Shown: in pieces, positions 4,142 to 37,481 of the stretch
Position numbering within the stretch: position 1 is the stretch's first letter
Layout of the letters: every line of letters starts with the position of its first letter
Virus record (IMG/VR): IMGVR_UViG_2534681936_000021
Location: 1-37,481 of that record
DNA: 37,481 nt
From: a virus
Taxonomy: Duplodnaviria > Heunggongvirae > Uroviricota > Caudoviricetes
Direction: 5' to 3' (one strand)
Notes under the pieces: model-generated
The model's database searches: none
The model's input: only the letters and a program-made list of their open reading frames with translations
What the model was told of the DNA's origin: nothing
Translations under genes and position numbers: made by a program

Positions 4142-4263
4142 GAAACCAGAACATGCACACACAAAAAAACCGCTTGCCATGCCGCAATCAGTCAGGTTAC
4201 ATTTCCGCTGCACCTCACAAAACGGGTGTCGGGTTTCGCAGCCTGCTGACTACACAAGCGCAC

Positions 4264-4284
4264 AACCGCGCCAGCGGTTTTTTT
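4264..4284 (+). terminator. intrinsic terminator-like hairpin (aaccgc-gcca-gcggtt followed by T7)
   Basis: 6-bp GC stem, 4-nt loop and a run of 7 T; lies within the non-coding stretch after the early ORFs. Confidence 0.5.
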
Positions 4285-4463
4285 GTGCGTACTGTATTGC
4301 CACGTTTTTTTCGCGTCAGAATTATGGCGGGGCGTACGGGGCCGACTTCGGTCGGGCCGGGTTCTTGTGTAGCCGGTACTGCGAACCTCGTACGTCTCGC
4401 CACCCACAGTTTCGCAGCTCTGGATGGTGAGTTTTCACAACTTACTACACAAGGGGCCACACC

Positions 4464-32922: not shown

Positions 32923-33945
32923 TTAATACGCATTTAATTTAAATTTGTATTTGCCTTCTATGTAATGGATAAATTCAATTATGCTTTTTTCTATCGCATC
33001 TAATATATGAATATATCCATCCCGATTTAAGGTCCTATCCAACTCAAAGTGATGAACTATCCCATGTCTATATTGTATGATTTCAGAAATTCGATTCTCA
33101 AGAAAATCAACTGATTTTCCAATTCTTTTTTTCTTATAAAGAATCGCTCTCACATCTATATCCAGCCACTCTTTATATGCTTTGTTTAGGTGGGTTAAGT
33201 TTTGAAAAGTGTAATTTCTTGCAATAACACTTTCTATTGAAATATTTCCTTTCTCTATCTCAAGCAGAATATCAAAATCAACTTTTTGCTTATACGATGT
33301 TCTTTTTGCTATTGCGAAAGGATCGTACTTTATAAGTATTTGAAAAGCTCTAGAGAAAAAATATTCAAACATAGCAACCGCAAAAGGTACTAATCCATTA
33401 TATATAACTCTACTGGGATCCATACATTGCATGTAATCAAAGTATTCGGATAAGCCGCCATCTTCCGGTAGGTTTAATTTAATAGAAGGTTCAGGTAAGG
33501 CATGTTTAACAGCGGAAATCTCATGATGGACATGATTAAATATTGAAGAAATGCCACGACTGATCGGACTACTAGAATCCTTCCATAGAGGAGCGTACCT
33601 ATTTTTCCCATAATCACCTATAAGTGTTCCACCAAAAAGACTCCGTGCGCCTTTTAGAACATCATTAAGCATTTTTACATCATGCCAACTAGCGCTATAT
33701 AAATTACGCACATGCAATGCCCATTTATTACCAGATATGTGTAGTTCGTCATTTGAAACAGGATATATATCAGCCGAAACTCCATCTGTAGATTTGAAGT
33801 CCGTATCATCAAACCAAGAGTAATTCAACGTTCCTTGGGGCCATTCCCACAAATGTTTACACCTTTTAAAACCTAAATTTTCAAGGTAATTTTTAAGTTC
33901 GTTTCTAGTTGCTTTTTTAGGGTACAGCGTTATATCTCTTCCCAT
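32923..33945 (-). CDS. hypothetical 340-aa protein in an AT-rich insertion; C-terminal Rx4HH motif (candidate HEPN-like abortive-infection protein)
   Basis: Long clean ORF in markedly AT-rich DNA between D and ogr; motif YRHGIVHHFE near the C-terminus. Confidence 0.6.
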   Translation of the reverse strand: MGRDITLYPKKATRNELKNYLENLGFKRCKHLWEWPQGTLNYSWFDDTDFKSTDGVSADIYPVSNDELHISGNKWALHVRNLYSASWHDVKMLNDVLKGARSLFGGTLIGDYGKNRYAPLWKDSSSPISRGISSIFNHVHHEISAVKHALPEPSIKLNLPEDGGLSEYFDYMQCMDPSRVIYNGLVPFAVAMFEYFFSRAFQILIKYDPFAIAKRTSYKQKVDFDILLEIEKGNISIESVIARNYTFQNLTHLNKAYKEWLDIDVRAILYKKKRIGKSVDFLENRISEIIQYRHGIVHHFELDRTLNRDGYIHILDAIEKSIIEFIHYIEGKYKFKLNAY

Positions 33946-34136
33946 GCTTTATTCACCTGATATACAATATTTTAAATTTTAACTATTATGAACGTATGAA
34001 TTTTCACATTGGATGTATGGAAGTTCAACAACTATTGAAAGTTCAATTTTCACTCTTCGCACAGAGCGAGCTGTTAGTTGGAATTAGGGATCGTACAATC
34101 TAGAATAGCGGCAACACCACGTTAAGGGAGGTCGCT

Positions 34137-34397
34137 ATGTTCCGTTGTCCGCTTTGTGGCGCATCTGCCCGTATCCGCACAAGTCGTCCGGAAAATGATT
34201 CAAACACCGTGCGGCAAAAGTATTACCAGTGTAACAATCTGGAATGCGGCGTATGCTTCTCAACACTGGAAGCTTTCCATAAATTCACATCGAAACACGC
34301 CTCCGGCGTTCACTCTTCAGAAGGTATCCCGTGGCATGAGCTACCAGCTTCACACAGGGGAAACAATCAGATGAGTTTGCCTTTACCTCAGAATTAA
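34137..34397 (+). CDS. ogr: Ogr/Delta-family zinc-finger late transcription activator
   Basis: MFRCPLCGA...CNNLEC zinc-finger pattern typical of P2 Ogr; RBS agggagg upstream. Confidence 0.8.
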   Translation: MFRCPLCGASARIRTSRPENDSNTVRQKYYQCNNLECGVCFSTLEAFHKFTSKHASGVHSSEGIPWHELPASHRGNNQMSLPLPQN

Positions 34398-34588
34398 CAA
34401 GCAGAATTGCCGGAGTAACAAAAAAGCGATAGATTACGCGCGGGTGCCTTTCGGCTGATGGTCGGAGGGAATACCCGAAGGCCAGATGTGGAAAGGCCCC
34501 GGAAAACACTTTTGTTTAACCGAGGCCCTAACCGTCTACCCTAAGCAAGTGAAAGGTTAGCGCCTCTCCGGAAAAGGAGCAAGTGCTA

Positions 34589-34729
34589 TGTCGCAAAAAT
34601 CGCTTACAGCCATCACGTTCTGCGTGACGGTAATCCTCATCATCTGGATGTTGCACGGTTCGCTGTGCGAAATACGGATGAGTTTCTGGGGAGCGGAGTT
34701 TGCGGCGTTCTTACAGTGTAAGCAGTAAG
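34589..34729 (+). CDS. Hok/Gef-family type I toxin (46 aa), below the ORF-track size cutoff
   Basis: MSQKSLTAITFCVTVILIIWMLHGSLCEIR...AEFAAFL: transmembrane helix followed by the Hok-like SLCEIR and E(F/V)AAF motifs; RBS aaggag 8 nt upstream. Confidence 0.6.
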
Positions 34730-34738
34730 GAAACCGCG

Positions 34739-34760
34739 ACGGGGGAGTAATCCCCCGTCA
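34739..34760 (+). other. stable 9-bp hairpin just 3' of the hok-like ORF (gacggggga-gtaa-tcccccgtc)
   Basis: Perfect inverted repeat 10 nt after the stop; consistent with a hok mRNA 3' fold. Confidence 0.5.
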
Positions 34761-34989
34761 ATCGGTTGCCAGGGTAAGGTCGATAAGGCACCCTATCTCA
34801 CGGCTCTAAATGCAAAAATTCCATGAAACTGTGGGATTTTTGCATCACTACTGATACAGATCTGACCTTCTTTATGTCTCACTCTATACCAGCTAATCAA
34901 TTGACACTTATCAATAAAAAAAAATCTGATAAAATCAAAATGTTTTGTAACAAATATCAACTCGTATTGATCCAAAGGAGGCGGATTAC

Positions 34990-35322
34990 ATGGCATTAAT
35001 CAAATGTCCTGAATGCCAGAAAGAGGTGAGCGATTCAGCATTGTATTGCCCTGCTTGCGGTAAACAAATAAAAAAACTTAAGCGTTCATTTTTTGGAAAG
35101 CTCATTAAGTGGATTTTTATATTATTTAATATTTTTATGATCTATACGCTTTTAGTTGGACTGGGAGGCACTAGTGAAATAATAAATAATGCTACATCCG
35201 ATGCCGAAAAAGCCGGTGCAGTTATTGGTACAGGCTTAGGTTTAATTACCATTGGAAGTTTATGGGTTATTGGCGATATCATTATCGGAATTTTAGTGTT
35301 TCTTACTAAACCAAAAGGATAA
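34990..35322 (+). CDS. zinc-ribbon membrane protein (110 aa)
   Basis: N-terminal CPEC...CPAC zinc ribbon followed by two hydrophobic helices; AT-rich context. Confidence 0.5.
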   Translation: MALIKCPECQKEVSDSALYCPACGKQIKKLKRSFFGKLIKWIFILFNIFMIYTLLVGLGGTSEIINNATSDAEKAGAVIGTGLGLITIGSLWVIGDIIIGILVFLTKPKG

Positions 35323-35326
35323 CAAA

Positions 35327-36218
35327 ATGAAAAATATAATTTTTCTATAGGTGCATCATTTATATCAATTGGTGTACTGCCTGTTCACGCAGCAACTGAA
35401 CATAATAACTTCAATGCAGTACTCCAGTGCCGAGCAATAGAAAATAATAAAGACAGACTTTCTTGTTACGATAAGTCAATACAACCGACTCGAACGAAAG
35501 TTGCTGAAAAATTCGAAAGCAGAGATCAATGCCCTGATGAGAAAGATGATGACAGACGTTTATCTTGTTATGATCGTTTTTTTCTCCAACATTTACTCCA
35601 TCTGTAAACTCAAAATCTAAAACGGAAAAGCCAGTAACAACAGAGGCTCAGCAACCAAATCTTTCTGAGATATCTAAATGCCGAGCAGAAAATGATAAAG
35701 AAGCCAGACTAAACTGCTACGATAAACTATTCCCACAGGATAAAGCTGTTCAAGCTGAATCAAAATTAGAGAAAGCCACAGATGTAGGAAAATGGCACAC
35801 ATCCATTACTACATCGCCAATTGATGATTCGAAAAATGTAATTTTATCGTTAGAAAGTGATGATTATATCAGAACTCCATTTGGAGAAGCGGTTACTCCT
35901 ACTCTGTTTATAGCTTGCCGAGAAAAGAAAACCGAAGTATTTCTTGGTTGGGATGTATATTTAGGCCTTGAACAAACCAGCATGCTTTATCGTCTTGATA
36001 AACAGAAAGCAGTTGAGCGAAACTGGCTAGTATCTACAGATACAAAGGCTGTTTTTTATAAAGGTAATGACATTGATTTCATCCGAAAACTAGCCAACTC
36101 AAACAAAATGTATACAAAAATAACTCCTTATAATGAGAGCCCTGTAAGTGCAACTTTCAATTTAAACGGCCTGTCAAACGCGCTAAAACCACTTCAAGCT
36201 GCTTGTAACTGGAAATAG
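35327..36218 (+). pseudogene. frameshifted gene for a secreted protein with three Cys-x9-10-Cys-Tyr-Asp repeats
   Basis: Signal-peptide-like start (MKNIIF...); frame breaks at T-runs near 35340 and 35577-35583; an ATG-less open frame continues to 36218. Confidence 0.45.
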
Positions 36219-36245
36219 CATAAATCATGTGGCTTAGCCACAATC

Positions 36246-36289
36246 ACAGATAACACAAAGCCCGTGGAAACGGGCTTTGTGTTATCTGT
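36246..36289. other. 19-bp perfect inverted repeat with 6-nt loop (acagataacacaaagcccg / cgggctttgtgttatctgt)
   Basis: Seen directly; lies between the upstream pseudogene and the candidate attR. Confidence 0.55.
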
Positions 36290-36299
36290 AACTCGAAAA

Positions 36300-36319: not shown

Positions 36320-36485
36320 GTGCTGATATAAATCCTTTTATATCAATAAATTAAATCATCATTTTTTTCATCAACAAGGATTTTCACGTTTGTGTTACCT
36401 GTATGAGACGAGAGTTAACCGGACAAGTGTGCCATAATCTCGCGGCCAGGCATACTTGCGAAGATTTCAGGTATAAGGATACGTA

Positions 36486-37481
36486 ATGATACAACCTATT
36501 TCCGGCCCTCCTCCTGGGCAACCACCAGGTCAGGGAGATAACCTGCCGTCTGGCGCGGGCAATCAGCCTTTATCCAGTCAGCAACGTACTTCGCTGGAAA
36601 GCTTAATGACGAAAGTGACCTCACTGACGCAACAGCAAAGAGCAGAACTGTGGGCGGGTATCAGGCACGATATTGGTCTGTCGGGAGATTCACCGCTGCT
36701 TTCGCGTCACTTCCCTGCCGCTGAGCATAATCTGGCGCAACGTCTGCTGGCCGCGCAAAAAAGCCATTCTGCCCGCCAGCTTTTAGCGCAATTAGGGGAG
36801 TATTTACGTCTGGGGAATAATCGTCAGGCGGTCACGGATTATATCCGTCATAACTTTGGTCAGACGCCGCTGAATCAGCTCTCACCGGAGCAATTAAAAA
36901 CCATTCTCACCCTGTTGCAGGAAGGGAAGATGGTTATTCCGCAACCGCAGCAGCGCGAGGCGACCGATCGTCCTCTATTACCGGCGGAGCACAATGCGCT
37001 CAAACAGCTGGTGACCAAACTTGCGGCGGCAACGGGGGAGCCCAGCAAACAGATCTGGCAATCGATGCTGGAACTTTCCGGGGTGAAAGATGGCGAGTTA
37101 ATTCCAGCGAAACTGTTTAACCATCTGGTGACCTGGCTGCAGGCGCGTCAGACGCTAAGCCAGCAAAATACGCCGACGCTGGAATCACTACAAATGACGC
37201 TAAAACAACCTTTAGATGCCAGTGAACTGGCGGCGTTATCGGCATATATCCAGCAAAAATATGGCCTTTCTGCGCAATCATCGCTTTCTTCTGCCCAGGC
37301 CGAGGATATTCTTAATCAGCTTTATCAACGGCGGGTTAAAGGGATTGATCCGCGTGATATGCAACCGCTGCTTAATCCTTTTCCACCGATGATGGACACG
37401 TTGCAAAATATGGCAACGCGTCCCGCGCTGTGGATACTGTTAGTCGCGATTATCCTGATGCTGGTCTGGCTGGTTCGTTAA
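36486..37481 (+). CDS. flk: Flk-like flagellar regulator with C-terminal membrane anchor (host gene)
   Basis: Pro/Gln-rich N-terminus MIQPISGPPPGQPPGQ and C-terminal hydrophobic anchor ALWILLVAIILMLVWLVR; recognised from memory of enterobacterial Flk. Confidence 0.55.
   Translation: MIQPISGPPPGQPPGQGDNLPSGAGNQPLSSQQRTSLESLMTKVTSLTQQQRAELWAGIRHDIGLSGDSPLLSRHFPAAEHNLAQRLLAAQKSHSARQLLAQLGEYLRLGNNRQAVTDYIRHNFGQTPLNQLSPEQLKTILTLLQEGKMVIPQPQQREATDRPLLPAEHNALKQLVTKLAAATGEPSKQIWQSMLELSGVKDGELIPAKLFNHLVTWLQARQTLSQQNTPTLESLQMTLKQPLDASELAALSAYIQQKYGLSAQSSLSSAQAEDILNQLYQRRVKGIDPRDMQPLLNPFPPMMDTLQNMATRPALWILLVAIILMLVWLVR

What the first reader, a model, noticed from the sequence alone, without database searches (positions are those of the whole stretch)
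34398..34765. hok/gef-like type I toxin locus between ogr and the putative attR
A 46-aa ORF with a hydrophobic helix followed by the SLCEIR and EFAAF signatures of Hok-family toxins has a good SD and a stable 3' hairpin. Such loci need an overlapping mok frame and an antisense Sok RNA from the upstream leader (34480-34588); neither was resolved here. If it lies inside the att repeats it is prophage-borne and may act in post-segregational killing or phage exclusion.
Basis: partly seen in the sequence, partly recalled or inferred. Interest (0 to 1): 0.55.

Follow-up and report, generated by a model that had tools for sequence, protein, structure and literature searches.

The report
Prophage-borne hok/sok toxin–antitoxin locus
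This is a real and already catalogued hok/sok-type toxin–antisense-RNA module carried as cargo by a P2-like E. coli prophage; it is ordinary except that this widespread subgroup lacks the usual overlapping "mok" leader gene.

Summary
ORF 34588-34728 (46 aa) is a Hok/Gef toxin: Pfam 30.1 bits against a cut-off of 22, PHROG E 2.5e-23. The DNA is 100% identical to gp36 of Escherichia phage 500465-2. Relatives occur in 1750 of 5426 complete E. coli genomes, annotated "Hok/Gef family protein". A variant differing by one residue belongs to "cluster 72" of a 2026 preprint, where it was toxic on overexpression.

- hok promoter, -35 at 34407 and -10 at 34430, with +1 near 34442.
- A 5' tac element (34442-56) that pairs with a 3' fbi element (34778-93).
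- A covarying 3' hairpin (34737-60).
- An antisense Sok of about 60 nt (about 34547 to 34487, minus strand), with invariant promoter hexamers and a hairpin that keeps pairing through compensatory changes.

No mok frame exists. CCG replaces the ATG found in R1, hokB and hokC, and none of 53 variants restores it.

The locus lies about 1.6 kb inside the host junction (36365), so it is prophage cargo. Its biological role is inferred, not shown. Already known; low interest, with a modest open point in the mok-less design.

The parts
34407..34435 (+). Promoter of the hok mRNA: -35 TTGCCG (34407-12), 17-nt spacer, -10 TAGATT (34430-35)
   Evidence: Read directly from the sequence. In alignment A4 the -10 sits at the position of the R1 -10 box TATGAT. 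That R1 box was validated by mutation in PMC9841398, and TAGATT fits TANNNT. At 8 of 12 matches it falls below the cut-off of the consensus scan.
34442..34456 (+). 5' end of the hok mRNA, the tac element (GGGUGCCUUUCGGCU). It pairs either with fbi or with the ucb-like box at 34490-34500
   Evidence: Positions 34442-50 are invariant in 53 sequences. The MFE fold of the full-length RNA pairs 34442-56 with 34778-93. The fold of the truncated RNA and the RNAalifold consensus pair it with 34490-34500.
34487..34547 (-). Predicted Sok antisense RNA, about 60 nt: a single-stranded 5' tail, then a hairpin (GGGCCUCGG...CCGGGGCC), then UUUCC
   Evidence: The fold gives -23.2 kcal/mol, z -2.8. The hairpin is kept in 34 distinct variants, with compensatory changes in the upper stem. 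A U.G pair on this strand would be a C/A mismatch on the hok strand. Both ends are inferred, not mapped.
34554..34582 (-). Sok promoter: -35 TTGCTC (34582-77), 17-nt spacer, -10 TAACCT (34559-54)
   Evidence: AGGTTAG (34554-60) and GCAAG (34579-83) are invariant in all 53 homologs. The geometry matches R1-type TTGCGC-17-TATCCT at the aligned position. Assigning those R1 hexamers to the Sok promoter rests on my own knowledge of R1.
34522..34566 (+). Sok-target hairpin predicted in the 3'-truncated mRNA. Its loop is CCUAAGCAA and contains a YUNR motif (CUAA, 34541-44). The GAGG at 34522-25 corresponds to the mok Shine-Dalgarno of R1, but no start codon follows it
   Evidence: Fold of 34442-34763. 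In alignment A4 the window has CCG where R1-type, hokC and hokB have ATG. No canonical ORF reaches the hok translation start in the window, or in most of the 53 variants.
34558..34588 (+). Local hairpin that encloses the hok Shine-Dalgarno (AAGGAG, 34574-79) and reaches the A of the start codon
   Evidence: It appears in the MFE fold of the full-length RNA. 97% of cells are paired across 52 distinct sequences, against 22-57% in slid registers, with no covariation. The region also carries the Sok promoter, so conservation has a second possible cause.
34588..34728 (+). hok: a 46-aa Hok/Gef-family membrane toxin
   Evidence: Pfam PF01848 30.1 bits (gathering score 22). NCBIfam HokA E 6e-9, below its cut-off. 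PHROG 251. The exact peptide is on more than 1000 contigs. 43% identity to K-12 HokA. dN/dS below 1.
34737..34760 (+). 3' stem-loop, the predicted protective end of the processed hok mRNA
   Evidence: Inverted repeat I5. Compensatory changes across homologs: GC to AU 12 times; AU to GC or CG in 9 sequences (10 both-side changes in all). Its role is inferred from the equivalent R1 stem-loop (PMC9841398).
34766..34776 (+). 3'-UTR box that pairs with the Sok-target region 34537-48 in the full-length fold
   Evidence: MFE fold. 86% of cells are paired, 16 cells show changes on both sides, and 4 of 500 shuffles reach that number. Support is moderate.
34778..34793 (+). fbi (fold-back inhibition) element, complementary to tac. 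It marks the 3' limit of the conserved module
   Evidence: 9-nt perfect complement GGGTGCCTT / AAGGCACCC, extended to 15 pairs in the fold. 95.9% of cells are paired, against 39-57% in slid registers. Homology between different genomic contexts stops at 34793-34801.

Best explanation
The locus is a hok/sok-type type I toxin-antitoxin module of about 390 bp (34407-34793). It is carried as accessory cargo between ogr and the right end of a P2-like (Peduoviridae) prophage.

Shown here:
- A Hok-family peptide gene under purifying selection.
- A leader homologous to known hok leaders.
- Conserved 5'/3' complementarity (tac/fbi).
- A covarying 3' hairpin.
- On the opposite strand, conserved promoter-like hexamers followed by a conserved hairpin.

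Inferred from the R1 paradigm:
1. The full-length hok mRNA is closed by tac-fbi pairing and is translationally inert.
2. Slow 3' trimming back to the 34737-60 hairpin lets tac pair with 34490-34500 instead. This exposes a target hairpin whose loop meets the 5' tail of the short-lived Sok RNA.
3. The Sok-mRNA duplex is destroyed by RNase III.
4. When Sok synthesis stops, processed mRNA is translated. This could follow loss of the element, host transcription shut-off by an infecting phage, or prophage induction.
5. Hok inserts in the inner membrane and kills or depolarises the cell.

Difference from R1: there is no mok reading frame, so translation of hok cannot depend on mok-type coupling in this locus. 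My best guess is that access to the hok Shine-Dalgarno is set directly by RNA refolding and by Sok-triggered decay. That step is the weakest in the chain.
For: Toxin identity:
- Pfam, NCBIfam and PHROG hits.
- The conserved positions M1, C12, T14, L26, C27, E28 and E37 correspond to the seven positions conserved in more than 80% of 1264 Hok peptides (preprint 10.1101/2025.08.07.668861).
- The V15A variant of this peptide (72_1621) and the Stx-phage variant (72_1589) were cloned in that preprint. Neither is among the three non-toxic homologs it lists.

Leader homology:
- Rfam RF01794 matches 34442-34601, E 7.6e-10.
- In K-12 that model matches on the hok strand and spans the leader.

RNA architecture:
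- Full-length fold: -160.3 kcal/mol, z -7.5.
- tac/fbi pairing; 3' hairpin covariation; second long-range helix; tac/ucb pairing and the target hairpin in the truncated fold.

Sok:
- Invariant hexamers; hairpin kept in 34 variants; geometry aligned with R1-type.

Selection and spread:
- ORF intact in 53 of 53 variants; dN/dS 0-0.6.
- Relatives in 1750 of 5426 E. coli genomes.
- Found in P2-like and lambdoid phages, in an IncI1 plasmid and at a non-phage chromosomal site next to urease and IS remnants.

Prophage cargo:
- K-12 homology begins at 36365.
Against: - No transcript, RNA end or toxicity was measured for this exact locus.
- The Rfam score of 51.9 bits is below the family's gathering score of 59.
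- Both predicted promoters are weak by consensus (8/12 and 6/12) and were not reported by the promoter scan.
- The U-tract after the Sok hairpin is only UUU.
- tac is invariant, so tac/fbi is supported by conservation and register controls, not by covariation.
- In R1, mok translation up to the hok Shine-Dalgarno is required (PMC9841398), and mok is missing here.
- The direct-switch alternative gets only weak thermodynamic support. The probability that the Shine-Dalgarno is unpaired goes 0.33 (full length), 0.42 (truncated), 0.33 (Sok-blocked).
- Chromosomal hok loci of K-12 have been reported inactive in post-segregational killing (preprint introduction).
Confidence: 0.85

Rival explanations
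1. The locus is an inactive relic. The peptide gene and RNA signals are inherited from a functional ancestor, but without mok Hok is never translated, so the module is neutral cargo.
For: There is no mok start codon in the window or in most variants. R1 needs mok translation. K-12 chromosomal hok loci were reported inactive. The predicted Shine-Dalgarno stays mostly paired in all three modelled states.
Against: - The hok ORF is intact in 53 of 53 variants at 75-100% DNA identity. Close relatives differ by 4-5 synonymous and 0-2 non-synonymous changes.
- tac, fbi, the Sok hexamers and the hairpins are all maintained.
- The module has spread to several unrelated mobile contexts with sharp boundaries.
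- Cluster-72 peptides were toxic when expressed.
Confidence: 0.08
2. Translation of hok is still coupled to an upstream ORF, as with mok. The ORF would be the short leader ORF 34486-34560 (24 codons, same frame as hok). Its TAG sits at the 5' foot of the hairpin that masks the hok Shine-Dalgarno, and its ATG abuts the 3' end of the Sok-complementary region.
For: The ORF exists with an AAGG 4 nt upstream. Its stop at 34558-60 coincides with the first pair of the Shine-Dalgarno hairpin. The sequence GATGTGGAAAGG is kept in most of the 53 variants.
Against: - The length of this ORF ranges from 1 to 79 codons among variants. Its stop lies anywhere from 97 nt upstream to 137 nt downstream of the hok ATG.
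- Two variants lack the ATG.
- In the predicted active (truncated) fold its first codons are buried in the tac stem.
- Conservation of the ATG region can be explained by the 3' tail of Sok on the other strand.
Confidence: 0.2
3. Rivals for the biological role (not mutually exclusive): (a) the module stabilises the prophage by killing cells that lose it; (b) it acts as abortive infection against other phages when host transcription is shut off; (c) it helps lysis and phage release at induction, as shown for hokW-sokW of prophage Sp5.
For: - (a) This is the classical R1 function.
[quoted passage not shown] The neighbouring slot between gpD and ogr holds a gene with a weak HEPN-like hit.
- (c) In Sp5, Sok disappears after mitomycin C, HokW appears about 1 h before endolysin, and phage yield halves without the locus (PMC8621323).
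Against: - None of these was tested for this cluster.
- HokW is a different 51-aa Hok in a lambdoid phage.
- hok was not enriched near defence systems, and PADLOC has no hit.
- The same module also sits on plasmids and outside phages, so no single phage-specific role is required.
Confidence: 0.5

Closest known systems
Hok "cluster 72" of Escalera-Maurer et al. (bioRxiv 10.1101/2025.08.07.668861); RefSeq "Hok/Gef family protein"; gp36 "MokW-like host killing" of Escherichia phage 500465-2 (NC_049343)
   Same: The DNA of 34100-34830 is 100% identical to the phage record. The exact peptide is in public databases on more than 1000 contigs. Tested member 72_1621 differs by one residue (V15A).
   Different: Nothing differs at the level of the gene. 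Those sources annotate only the peptide. Sok, tac/fbi and the absence of mok are not annotated for this cluster, and the preprint states that mok was not analysed.
hok/sok (parB) of plasmid R1
   Same: - Hok-family peptide.
- -10 box at the aligned position.
- tac/fbi closure and the tac/ucb alternative.
- GAGG box.
- Antisense promoter with the same 17-nt geometry overlapping the hok Shine-Dalgarno region.
- 3' protective stem-loop.
   Different: - No mok: CCG stands where R1 has the mok ATG.
- Peptide of 46 aa against 52 aa.
- The leader scores only 51.9 bits on the Rfam model.
- Carried by a prophage rather than a plasmid.
Chromosomal hokA / hokB / hokC loci of E. coli K-12
   Same: Same family. 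HokA is the closest K-12 paralogue at 43% identity. The best NCBIfam hit is the HokA model. Like HokA, the peptide has both cysteines hard-coded (C27, C44), so Y-to-C RNA editing is not needed.
   Different: hokB and hokC have annotated mok genes and score 110-118 bits on RF01794. Identity to HokB and HokC is only 22-24%.
hokW-sokW of Stx2 prophage Sp5 (PMC8621323)
   Same: It is a prophage-borne hok/sok type I system. The paper shows the antitoxin activity of sokW RNA, its dependence on RNase III and Hfq, and a role in lysis and phage release.
   Different: HokW is a different Hok: 51 aa, starting MKQQKAM according to primer YO-357. Stx phages carry a cluster-72 relative at a separate site after lom, at about 82% DNA identity. 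The "MokW-like" label on the present gene is a PHROG family name, not evidence of a mok.

Membership tests
Hok/Gef toxin family (Pfam PF01848) | Profile score above the curated gathering score | tested here: met
   30.1 bits against 22, E 3.7e-7, covering residues 7-44. PHROG 251 E 2.5e-23.
Hok/Gef toxin family (Pfam PF01848) | The seven positions conserved in more than 80% of Hok peptides (M1, C16, T18, L30, C31, E32, E41 in logo numbering) | tested here: met
   M1, C12, T14, L26, C27, E28 and E37 are invariant or nearly so when aligned with HokA, HokB and HokC. The list of positions comes from the preprint.
Hok/Gef toxin family (Pfam PF01848) | Single N-terminal hydrophobic helix, plus a C-terminal part with the second cysteine | tested here: met
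   Residues 6-22 (LTAITFCVTVILIIWML) have a mean hydropathy of 2.58. C44 is present.
Hok/Gef toxin family (Pfam PF01848) | Toxic when overexpressed | not testable with these tools
   From the literature only. The V15A variant 72_1621 and the Stx-phage variant 72_1589 were tested, and neither is among the three non-toxic homologs.
NCBIfam HokA equivalog (NF007290) | Score above the curated cut-off | tested here: not met
   35.8 bits against a cut-off of 89. The peptide is a relative of HokA, not HokA itself.
[quoted passage not shown] | hok mRNA leader homologous to the family (Rfam RF01794) | tested here: inconclusive
   51.9 bits, E 7.6e-10, full model length, but below the gathering score of 59. 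It is absent from the gathering-threshold scan. K-12 hokC scores 118 and hokB 110 on the hok strand.
[quoted passage not shown] | 5' tac element complementary to a 3' fbi element | tested here: met
   15 pairs, 34442-56 with 34778-93. 95.9% of cells are paired in 52 distinct sequences, against 39-57% in slid registers. No covariation is possible because tac is invariant.
[quoted passage not shown] | Alternative tac/ucb pairing in the processed mRNA | tested here: met
   Inverted repeat I3, the RNAalifold consensus and the MFE fold of 34442-34763. This is prediction only.
[quoted passage not shown] | Cis-encoded antisense Sok RNA with its own promoter and terminator, complementary to the leader | tested here: met
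   TTGCTC-17-TAACCT has invariant cores. It aligns with R1-type TTGCGC-17-TATCCT. The hairpin is kept through compensatory changes in 34 variants. Expression was not tested.
[quoted passage not shown] | Target hairpin presenting a YUNR U-turn loop to Sok | tested here: inconclusive
   The truncated fold predicts a hairpin at 34522-66 with loop CCUAAGCAA, containing CUAA. This rests on one MFE prediction. By eye, the variant loops keep a YUNR motif.
[quoted passage not shown] | Overlapping mok reading frame that starts after the GAGG box and reads into the hok translation start | tested here: not met
   No ATG, GTG or TTG ORF from the leader reaches the hok Shine-Dalgarno or start in the window. 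CCG stands at the position of the mok ATG of R1-type, hokB and hokC. Only a minority of the 53 variants have any such ORF, with differing start codons and start positions.
[quoted passage not shown] | Stable 3' stem-loop at the end of the processed mRNA | tested here: met
   34737-60, with 12 and 10 compensatory cells in the two apical pairs.

The most novel reading that the evidence does not exclude
Cluster-72 hok/sok loci are present in about a third of complete E. coli genomes. They may be a natural mok-independent variant of the hok/sok design. In that reading the box homologous to the mok Shine-Dalgarno (GAGGC, 34522-26) no longer recruits ribosomes. Instead it acts as an RNA switch arm that competes with the hairpin masking the hok Shine-Dalgarno. 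3' processing and Sok would then control hok translation directly, without a leader ORF.
Probability: 0.4. Interest if true: 0.4.

Novelty: already known. Interest (0 to 1): 0.2.

Why it matters
As found, it matters little. The gene is already annotated, the family is a textbook paradigm, and a near-identical peptide has been tested.

It confirms that this P2-like prophage carries a type I toxin-antitoxin module in the cargo slot between ogr and its right end.

The one point of wider use is the missing mok. In R1, mok translation is held to be obligatory for Hok synthesis. A very common, well-conserved and apparently selected subgroup without any mok frame offers a natural test of whether that coupling is general. 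The largest recent survey explicitly left mok and Sok unanalysed.

Tried and rejected
- **Consensus promoter and terminator scan of 34300-34950.** It reported neither the hok nor the Sok promoter. Both are below its 9/12 cut-off and were placed by alignment to R1-type and by conservation instead.
- **Single-protein search for related loci.** An alignment was used instead.
- **Direct RNA-switch model for exposure of the hok Shine-Dalgarno.** The MFE fold of the truncated RNA looks supportive. Ensemble accessibilities change only from 0.33 to 0.42 and back to 0.33, and similarly in 15 other variants. I keep it only as the novel case.
- **Leader ORFs 34458-34544 and 34486-34560 as mok substitutes.** Rejected as conserved features because their lengths and stops vary widely.
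- **Equating the locus with hokW-sokW.** Rejected: HokW is a different 51-aa peptide.
- **Reading the plus-strand Rfam "sok" hit as a Sok gene on the plus strand.** Rejected after calibration on K-12, where the model matches the hok strand.
- **PADLOC.** No hit for Hok or its neighbours.
- **Literature search for P2-like phages with hok.** Nothing specific.
- **attL.** Not searched for: the window opens in an uncharacterised minus-strand ORF (1-1020), and only the right junction was mapped.

Full report
**1. The observation**

The window has an ORF at 34588-34728 on the plus strand. It encodes MSQKSLTAITFCVTVILIIWMLHGSLCEIRMSFWGAEFAAFLQCKQ.
- An AAGGAG box lies 8 nt upstream of the ATG.
- A perfect 9-bp hairpin follows at 34738-59.
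- Residues 6-22 are strongly hydrophobic, with a mean Kyte-Doolittle value of 2.58.
- The peptide passes the Pfam Hok/Gef model: 30.1 bits against a gathering score of 22, E 3.7e-7.
- It matches PHROG 251 at E 2.5e-23.
- It hits the NCBIfam HokA model at E 6e-9 but far below that model's cut-off.

**2. Is it already known?**

Yes.
- The DNA of 34100-34830 is 100% identical to Escherichia phage 500465-2 (Peduoviridae). There the ORF is gp36, "MokW-like host killing".
- It is 95-97% identical to the deposited phage genomes P88, P884B11, PhiR44_2, Chuche and Citrobacter phage Shae_phiSM.
- Related copies occur in 1750 of 5426 complete E. coli genomes, annotated "Hok/Gef family protein", and on 35 plasmids.
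- The exact peptide is in the public protein collection on more than 1000 contigs.
- A 2026 preprint surveying Hok diversity lists 72_1621, identical to this peptide except V15A, and 72_1589, the Stx-phage variant, among representatives of a high-abundance cluster.
- Both were cloned for toxicity assays. The text names only three other homologs as non-toxic.
- The seven positions that preprint finds conserved in more than 80% of 1264 Hok peptides correspond to M1, C12, T14, L26, C27, E28 and E37 here. These are invariant or nearly so in my alignment with K-12 HokA, HokB and HokC.
- HokA is the closest K-12 paralogue at 43% identity.

**3. Extent of the module**

I compared the window with the loci held at that stage: two phage records, three K-12 reference loci, and 86 loci from the viral and genome collections. 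The shared block runs from 34401 (or 34421 in the most distant copies) to 34793-34801. Further relatives were then fetched from E. coli genomes and a plasmid and added to the alignment. The flanks differ completely between contexts:
- after ogr in P2-like prophages, once as a tandem pair;
- after lom or gpJ in lambdoid and Stx phages;
- next to urease and IS remnants in O157;
- on an IncI1 plasmid.

**4. The hok mRNA**

- The -10 box TAGATT (34430-35) aligns with the R1 -10 box TATGAT. That box was validated by mutagenesis in PMC9841398.
- With TTGCCG 17 nt upstream, this places +1 at about G34442.
- From there GGGUGCCUU is invariant in all 53 aligned homologs.
- The RNA 34440-34800 folds to -160.3 kcal/mol, z = -7.5 against shuffles.
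- In that fold 34442-56 pairs with 34778-93. This is the tac/fbi closure of the R1 paradigm.
- Across 52 distinct sequences 95.9% of these cells pair, against 39-57% when the partner is slid by 1-3 columns.
- Because tac never varies, this is conservation of complementarity, not covariation. The structure was also derived from the window itself, which favours it in that control.
- A second long-range helix (34537-48 with 34766-76) masks the future Sok-target region. It has some real covariation: 16 cells changed on both sides, and 4 of 500 shuffles reach that number.
- The 3' hairpin at 34737-60 has clear compensatory changes: GC to AU 12 times, and AU to GC or CG in 9 sequences, with 10 both-side changes in all.
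- When the RNA is cut just after that hairpin, the predicted fold changes as in R1. tac now pairs with 34490-34500. A hairpin at 34522-66 forms with loop CCUAAGCAA, which contains a YUNR motif.
- The RNAalifold consensus of the 53 sequences also chooses the tac/ucb-like pairing.

**5. Sok**

- On the minus strand TTGCTC (34582-77) and TAACCT (34559-54) are separated by 17 nt.
- Their cores are invariant in all 53 homologs, even at 75% overall identity.
- They sit at the position where the R1-type sequence has TTGCGC-17-TATCCT. Assigning those R1 hexamers to the Sok promoter is my own knowledge.
- Transcription from about 34547 would give an unstructured 5' tail of roughly 14-20 nt, then the hairpin GGGCCUCGG...CCGGGGCC, then UUUCC, ending near 34487. 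That is about 60 nt.
- The hairpin is kept in 34 distinct variants with a compensating upper stem, for example UUAAACA/UGUUUU against GUUAAC/GUUGAC.
- One pair is U.G on the Sok strand and would be a C/A mismatch on the hok strand. This suggests selection on the antisense strand.
- The tail is complementary to the loop of the predicted target hairpin.
- The Rfam family called "sok" (RF01794) matches 34442-34601 on the plus strand with E 7.6e-10 but only 51.9 bits, below its gathering score of 59.
- Calibration on K-12 shows the model is written in the hok-mRNA orientation and spans the leader. hokC scores 118 bits and hokB 110 bits on the hok strand, with the annotated sokC and sokB on the other strand.
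- The hit therefore identifies a divergent hok leader. A standard gathering-threshold scan misses it.

**6. mok**

This is the one defining feature that fails.
- In R1-type, hokC and hokB an ATG follows the GAGGC box by 6-9 nt. The window has CCG at that place.
- No ATG, GTG or TTG ORF from the leader reaches the hok translation start in the window.
- Among the 53 variants none has an ATG at that position. Only a minority have any ORF that reads into hok, and those use different start codons at different positions.
- The short ORF 34486-34560 is in frame with hok and stops at the foot of the hairpin that masks the hok Shine-Dalgarno.
- Its length varies from 1 to 79 codons among variants, and its start is buried in the tac stem of the predicted active form. 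I do not regard it as a conserved mok substitute.
- The hok ORF itself is intact in 53 of 53 variants.
- Close relatives differ by 4-5 synonymous and 0-2 non-synonymous changes. dN/dS is 0.2-0.6 for the distant relatives where it could be computed.
- So the peptide is under selection although mok is absent.
- I tested whether 3' truncation alone exposes the hok Shine-Dalgarno. The MFE fold suggests it does.
- In the ensemble, however, the unpaired probability moves only from 0.33 to 0.42, and back to 0.33 when the Sok-binding region is blocked.
- The direction is as expected in most of the 16 variants tested, but the effect is small.
- How Hok is translated in this cluster is therefore open. 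The recent survey states that mok and Sok were not analysed.

**7. Genomic setting**

- ogr (34137-34397) is confirmed by Pfam Ogr_Delta.
- Downstream of hok lies a gene for a zinc-ribbon protein with hydrophobic stretches (34990-35322).
- Next comes a TagO-like gene (35327-36220) that is frameshifted in this window.
- A long perfect palindrome follows at 36242-93.
- Homology to the K-12 chromosome starts only at 36365. By my reading of the sequence this is about 22 nt inside the 5' end of pdxB, and it runs on into flk.
- The hok/sok module is therefore about 1.6 kb inside the right end of the inserted element, so it is prophage cargo. attL was not searched for; the window opens in an uncharacterised minus-strand ORF.

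**8. Mechanism and role**

1. A stable mRNA is kept inert by fold-back pairing.
2. It is slowly activated by 3' trimming.
3. A short antisense RNA captures the processed form for RNase III cleavage.
4. Killing by membrane insertion of Hok follows once Sok synthesis stops.

These steps are inferred from R1 (PMC9841398) and from the prophage system hokW-sokW (PMC8621323). None was measured here.

The biological role remains untested for this cluster. It could be prophage retention, abortive infection, or help with lysis at induction as shown for Sp5.

HokW is a different 51-aa peptide. The "MokW-like" label on the present gene is only a PHROG family name.

**9. Verdict**

- The locus is already known and ordinary.
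- What I add is the placement of Sok, tac, fbi and the promoters, a corrected 3' boundary, and the observation that this very common Hok cluster has no mok frame.
- Interest is low (0.2).
- The most novel reading not excluded is a mok-independent variant of hok/sok regulation. I give it probability about 0.4 and modest interest if true.

Noticed in passing
window 32923-33945 (minus strand): A 340-aa ORF sits between the tail/late-control gene region and ogr. It has only a weak, sub-threshold RiboL-PSP-HEPN hit (E 1.2e-4, 22.5 bits against a cut-off of 28.4) and no PADLOC hit. It is annotated "hypothetical" in phage 500465-2 and in IHE3034. It may be a defence-type cargo gene in a P2-like variable slot.
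   Followed up: partly
window 34990-36220: A zinc-ribbon protein with hydrophobic stretches (34990-35322) is followed by a TagO-like gene. That gene is intact in phage 500465-2 and IHE3034 (894 nt) but frameshifted in this window. The protein carries a repeated RLSCYDK-type motif. Both genes lie inside the inserted element with hok.
   Followed up: partly
window 36242-36293: A long, near-perfect palindromic hairpin (ACAGATAACACAAAGCCCG...CGGGCTTTGTGTTATCTGT) lies just after the TagO-like gene. Rfam reports it as a spurious mir-5897 match on both strands. It is probably a bidirectional terminator.
   Followed up: no
window 36365-37481: Right host junction. Homology to K-12 (99%) starts at 36365. 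By my reading this is about 22 nt inside the 5' end of pdxB. It continues through the pdxB-flk spacer into flk (36486 onwards). The element is therefore inserted at the start of pdxB.
   Followed up: partly
window 4210-4407 (plus strand): Two Rfam matches above gathering score lie side by side: isrK (4210-4284, 61.9 bits) and C4 antisense RNA (4320-4407, 83.2 bits). They lie near the left end of the element and were not examined further.
   Followed up: no
L093 1516-2377 (E. coli JNEC-KY174, NZ_AP045170): A P2-like prophage carries two cluster-72 hok modules in tandem directly after ogr. One is 89% and the other 73% identical to the window copy in DNA. Three tRNA genes (Leu, Cys, Gly) follow within about 700 bp.
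   Followed up: partly
L004 602-754 and L005 567-718 (K-12 hokC and hokB): The Rfam family RF01794, named "sok antitoxin", matches the hok-mRNA strand over the whole 157-nt leader. It does not match the strand of the annotated sokC and sokB RNAs. Strand calls from this model should be read as the hok leader.
   Followed up: yes
window 34810-34845: A 14-nt inverted repeat (ATGCAAAAATTCCA / TGGGATTTTTGCAT) lies just outside the conserved hok module. It falls within the stretch (to 34860) that only the closest relatives share. Its purpose is unknown; it could be a terminator for read-through or a site belonging to the phage.
   Followed up: no
window 34737-34760 (minus strand): Read on the minus strand, the hok 3' hairpin is followed by a T-rich run (CGGTTTCCTT). 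The consensus scan flags it as terminator-like. It could stop transcription entering from downstream.
   Followed up: no
L007, L008, L011 (genome contigs): Identical or near-identical copies of this E. coli-type hok locus occur on contigs labelled Planococcaceae MAG, Vagococcus sp. and Xanthomonas pisi. This most likely reflects contamination of those assemblies with enterobacterial DNA.
   Followed up: no
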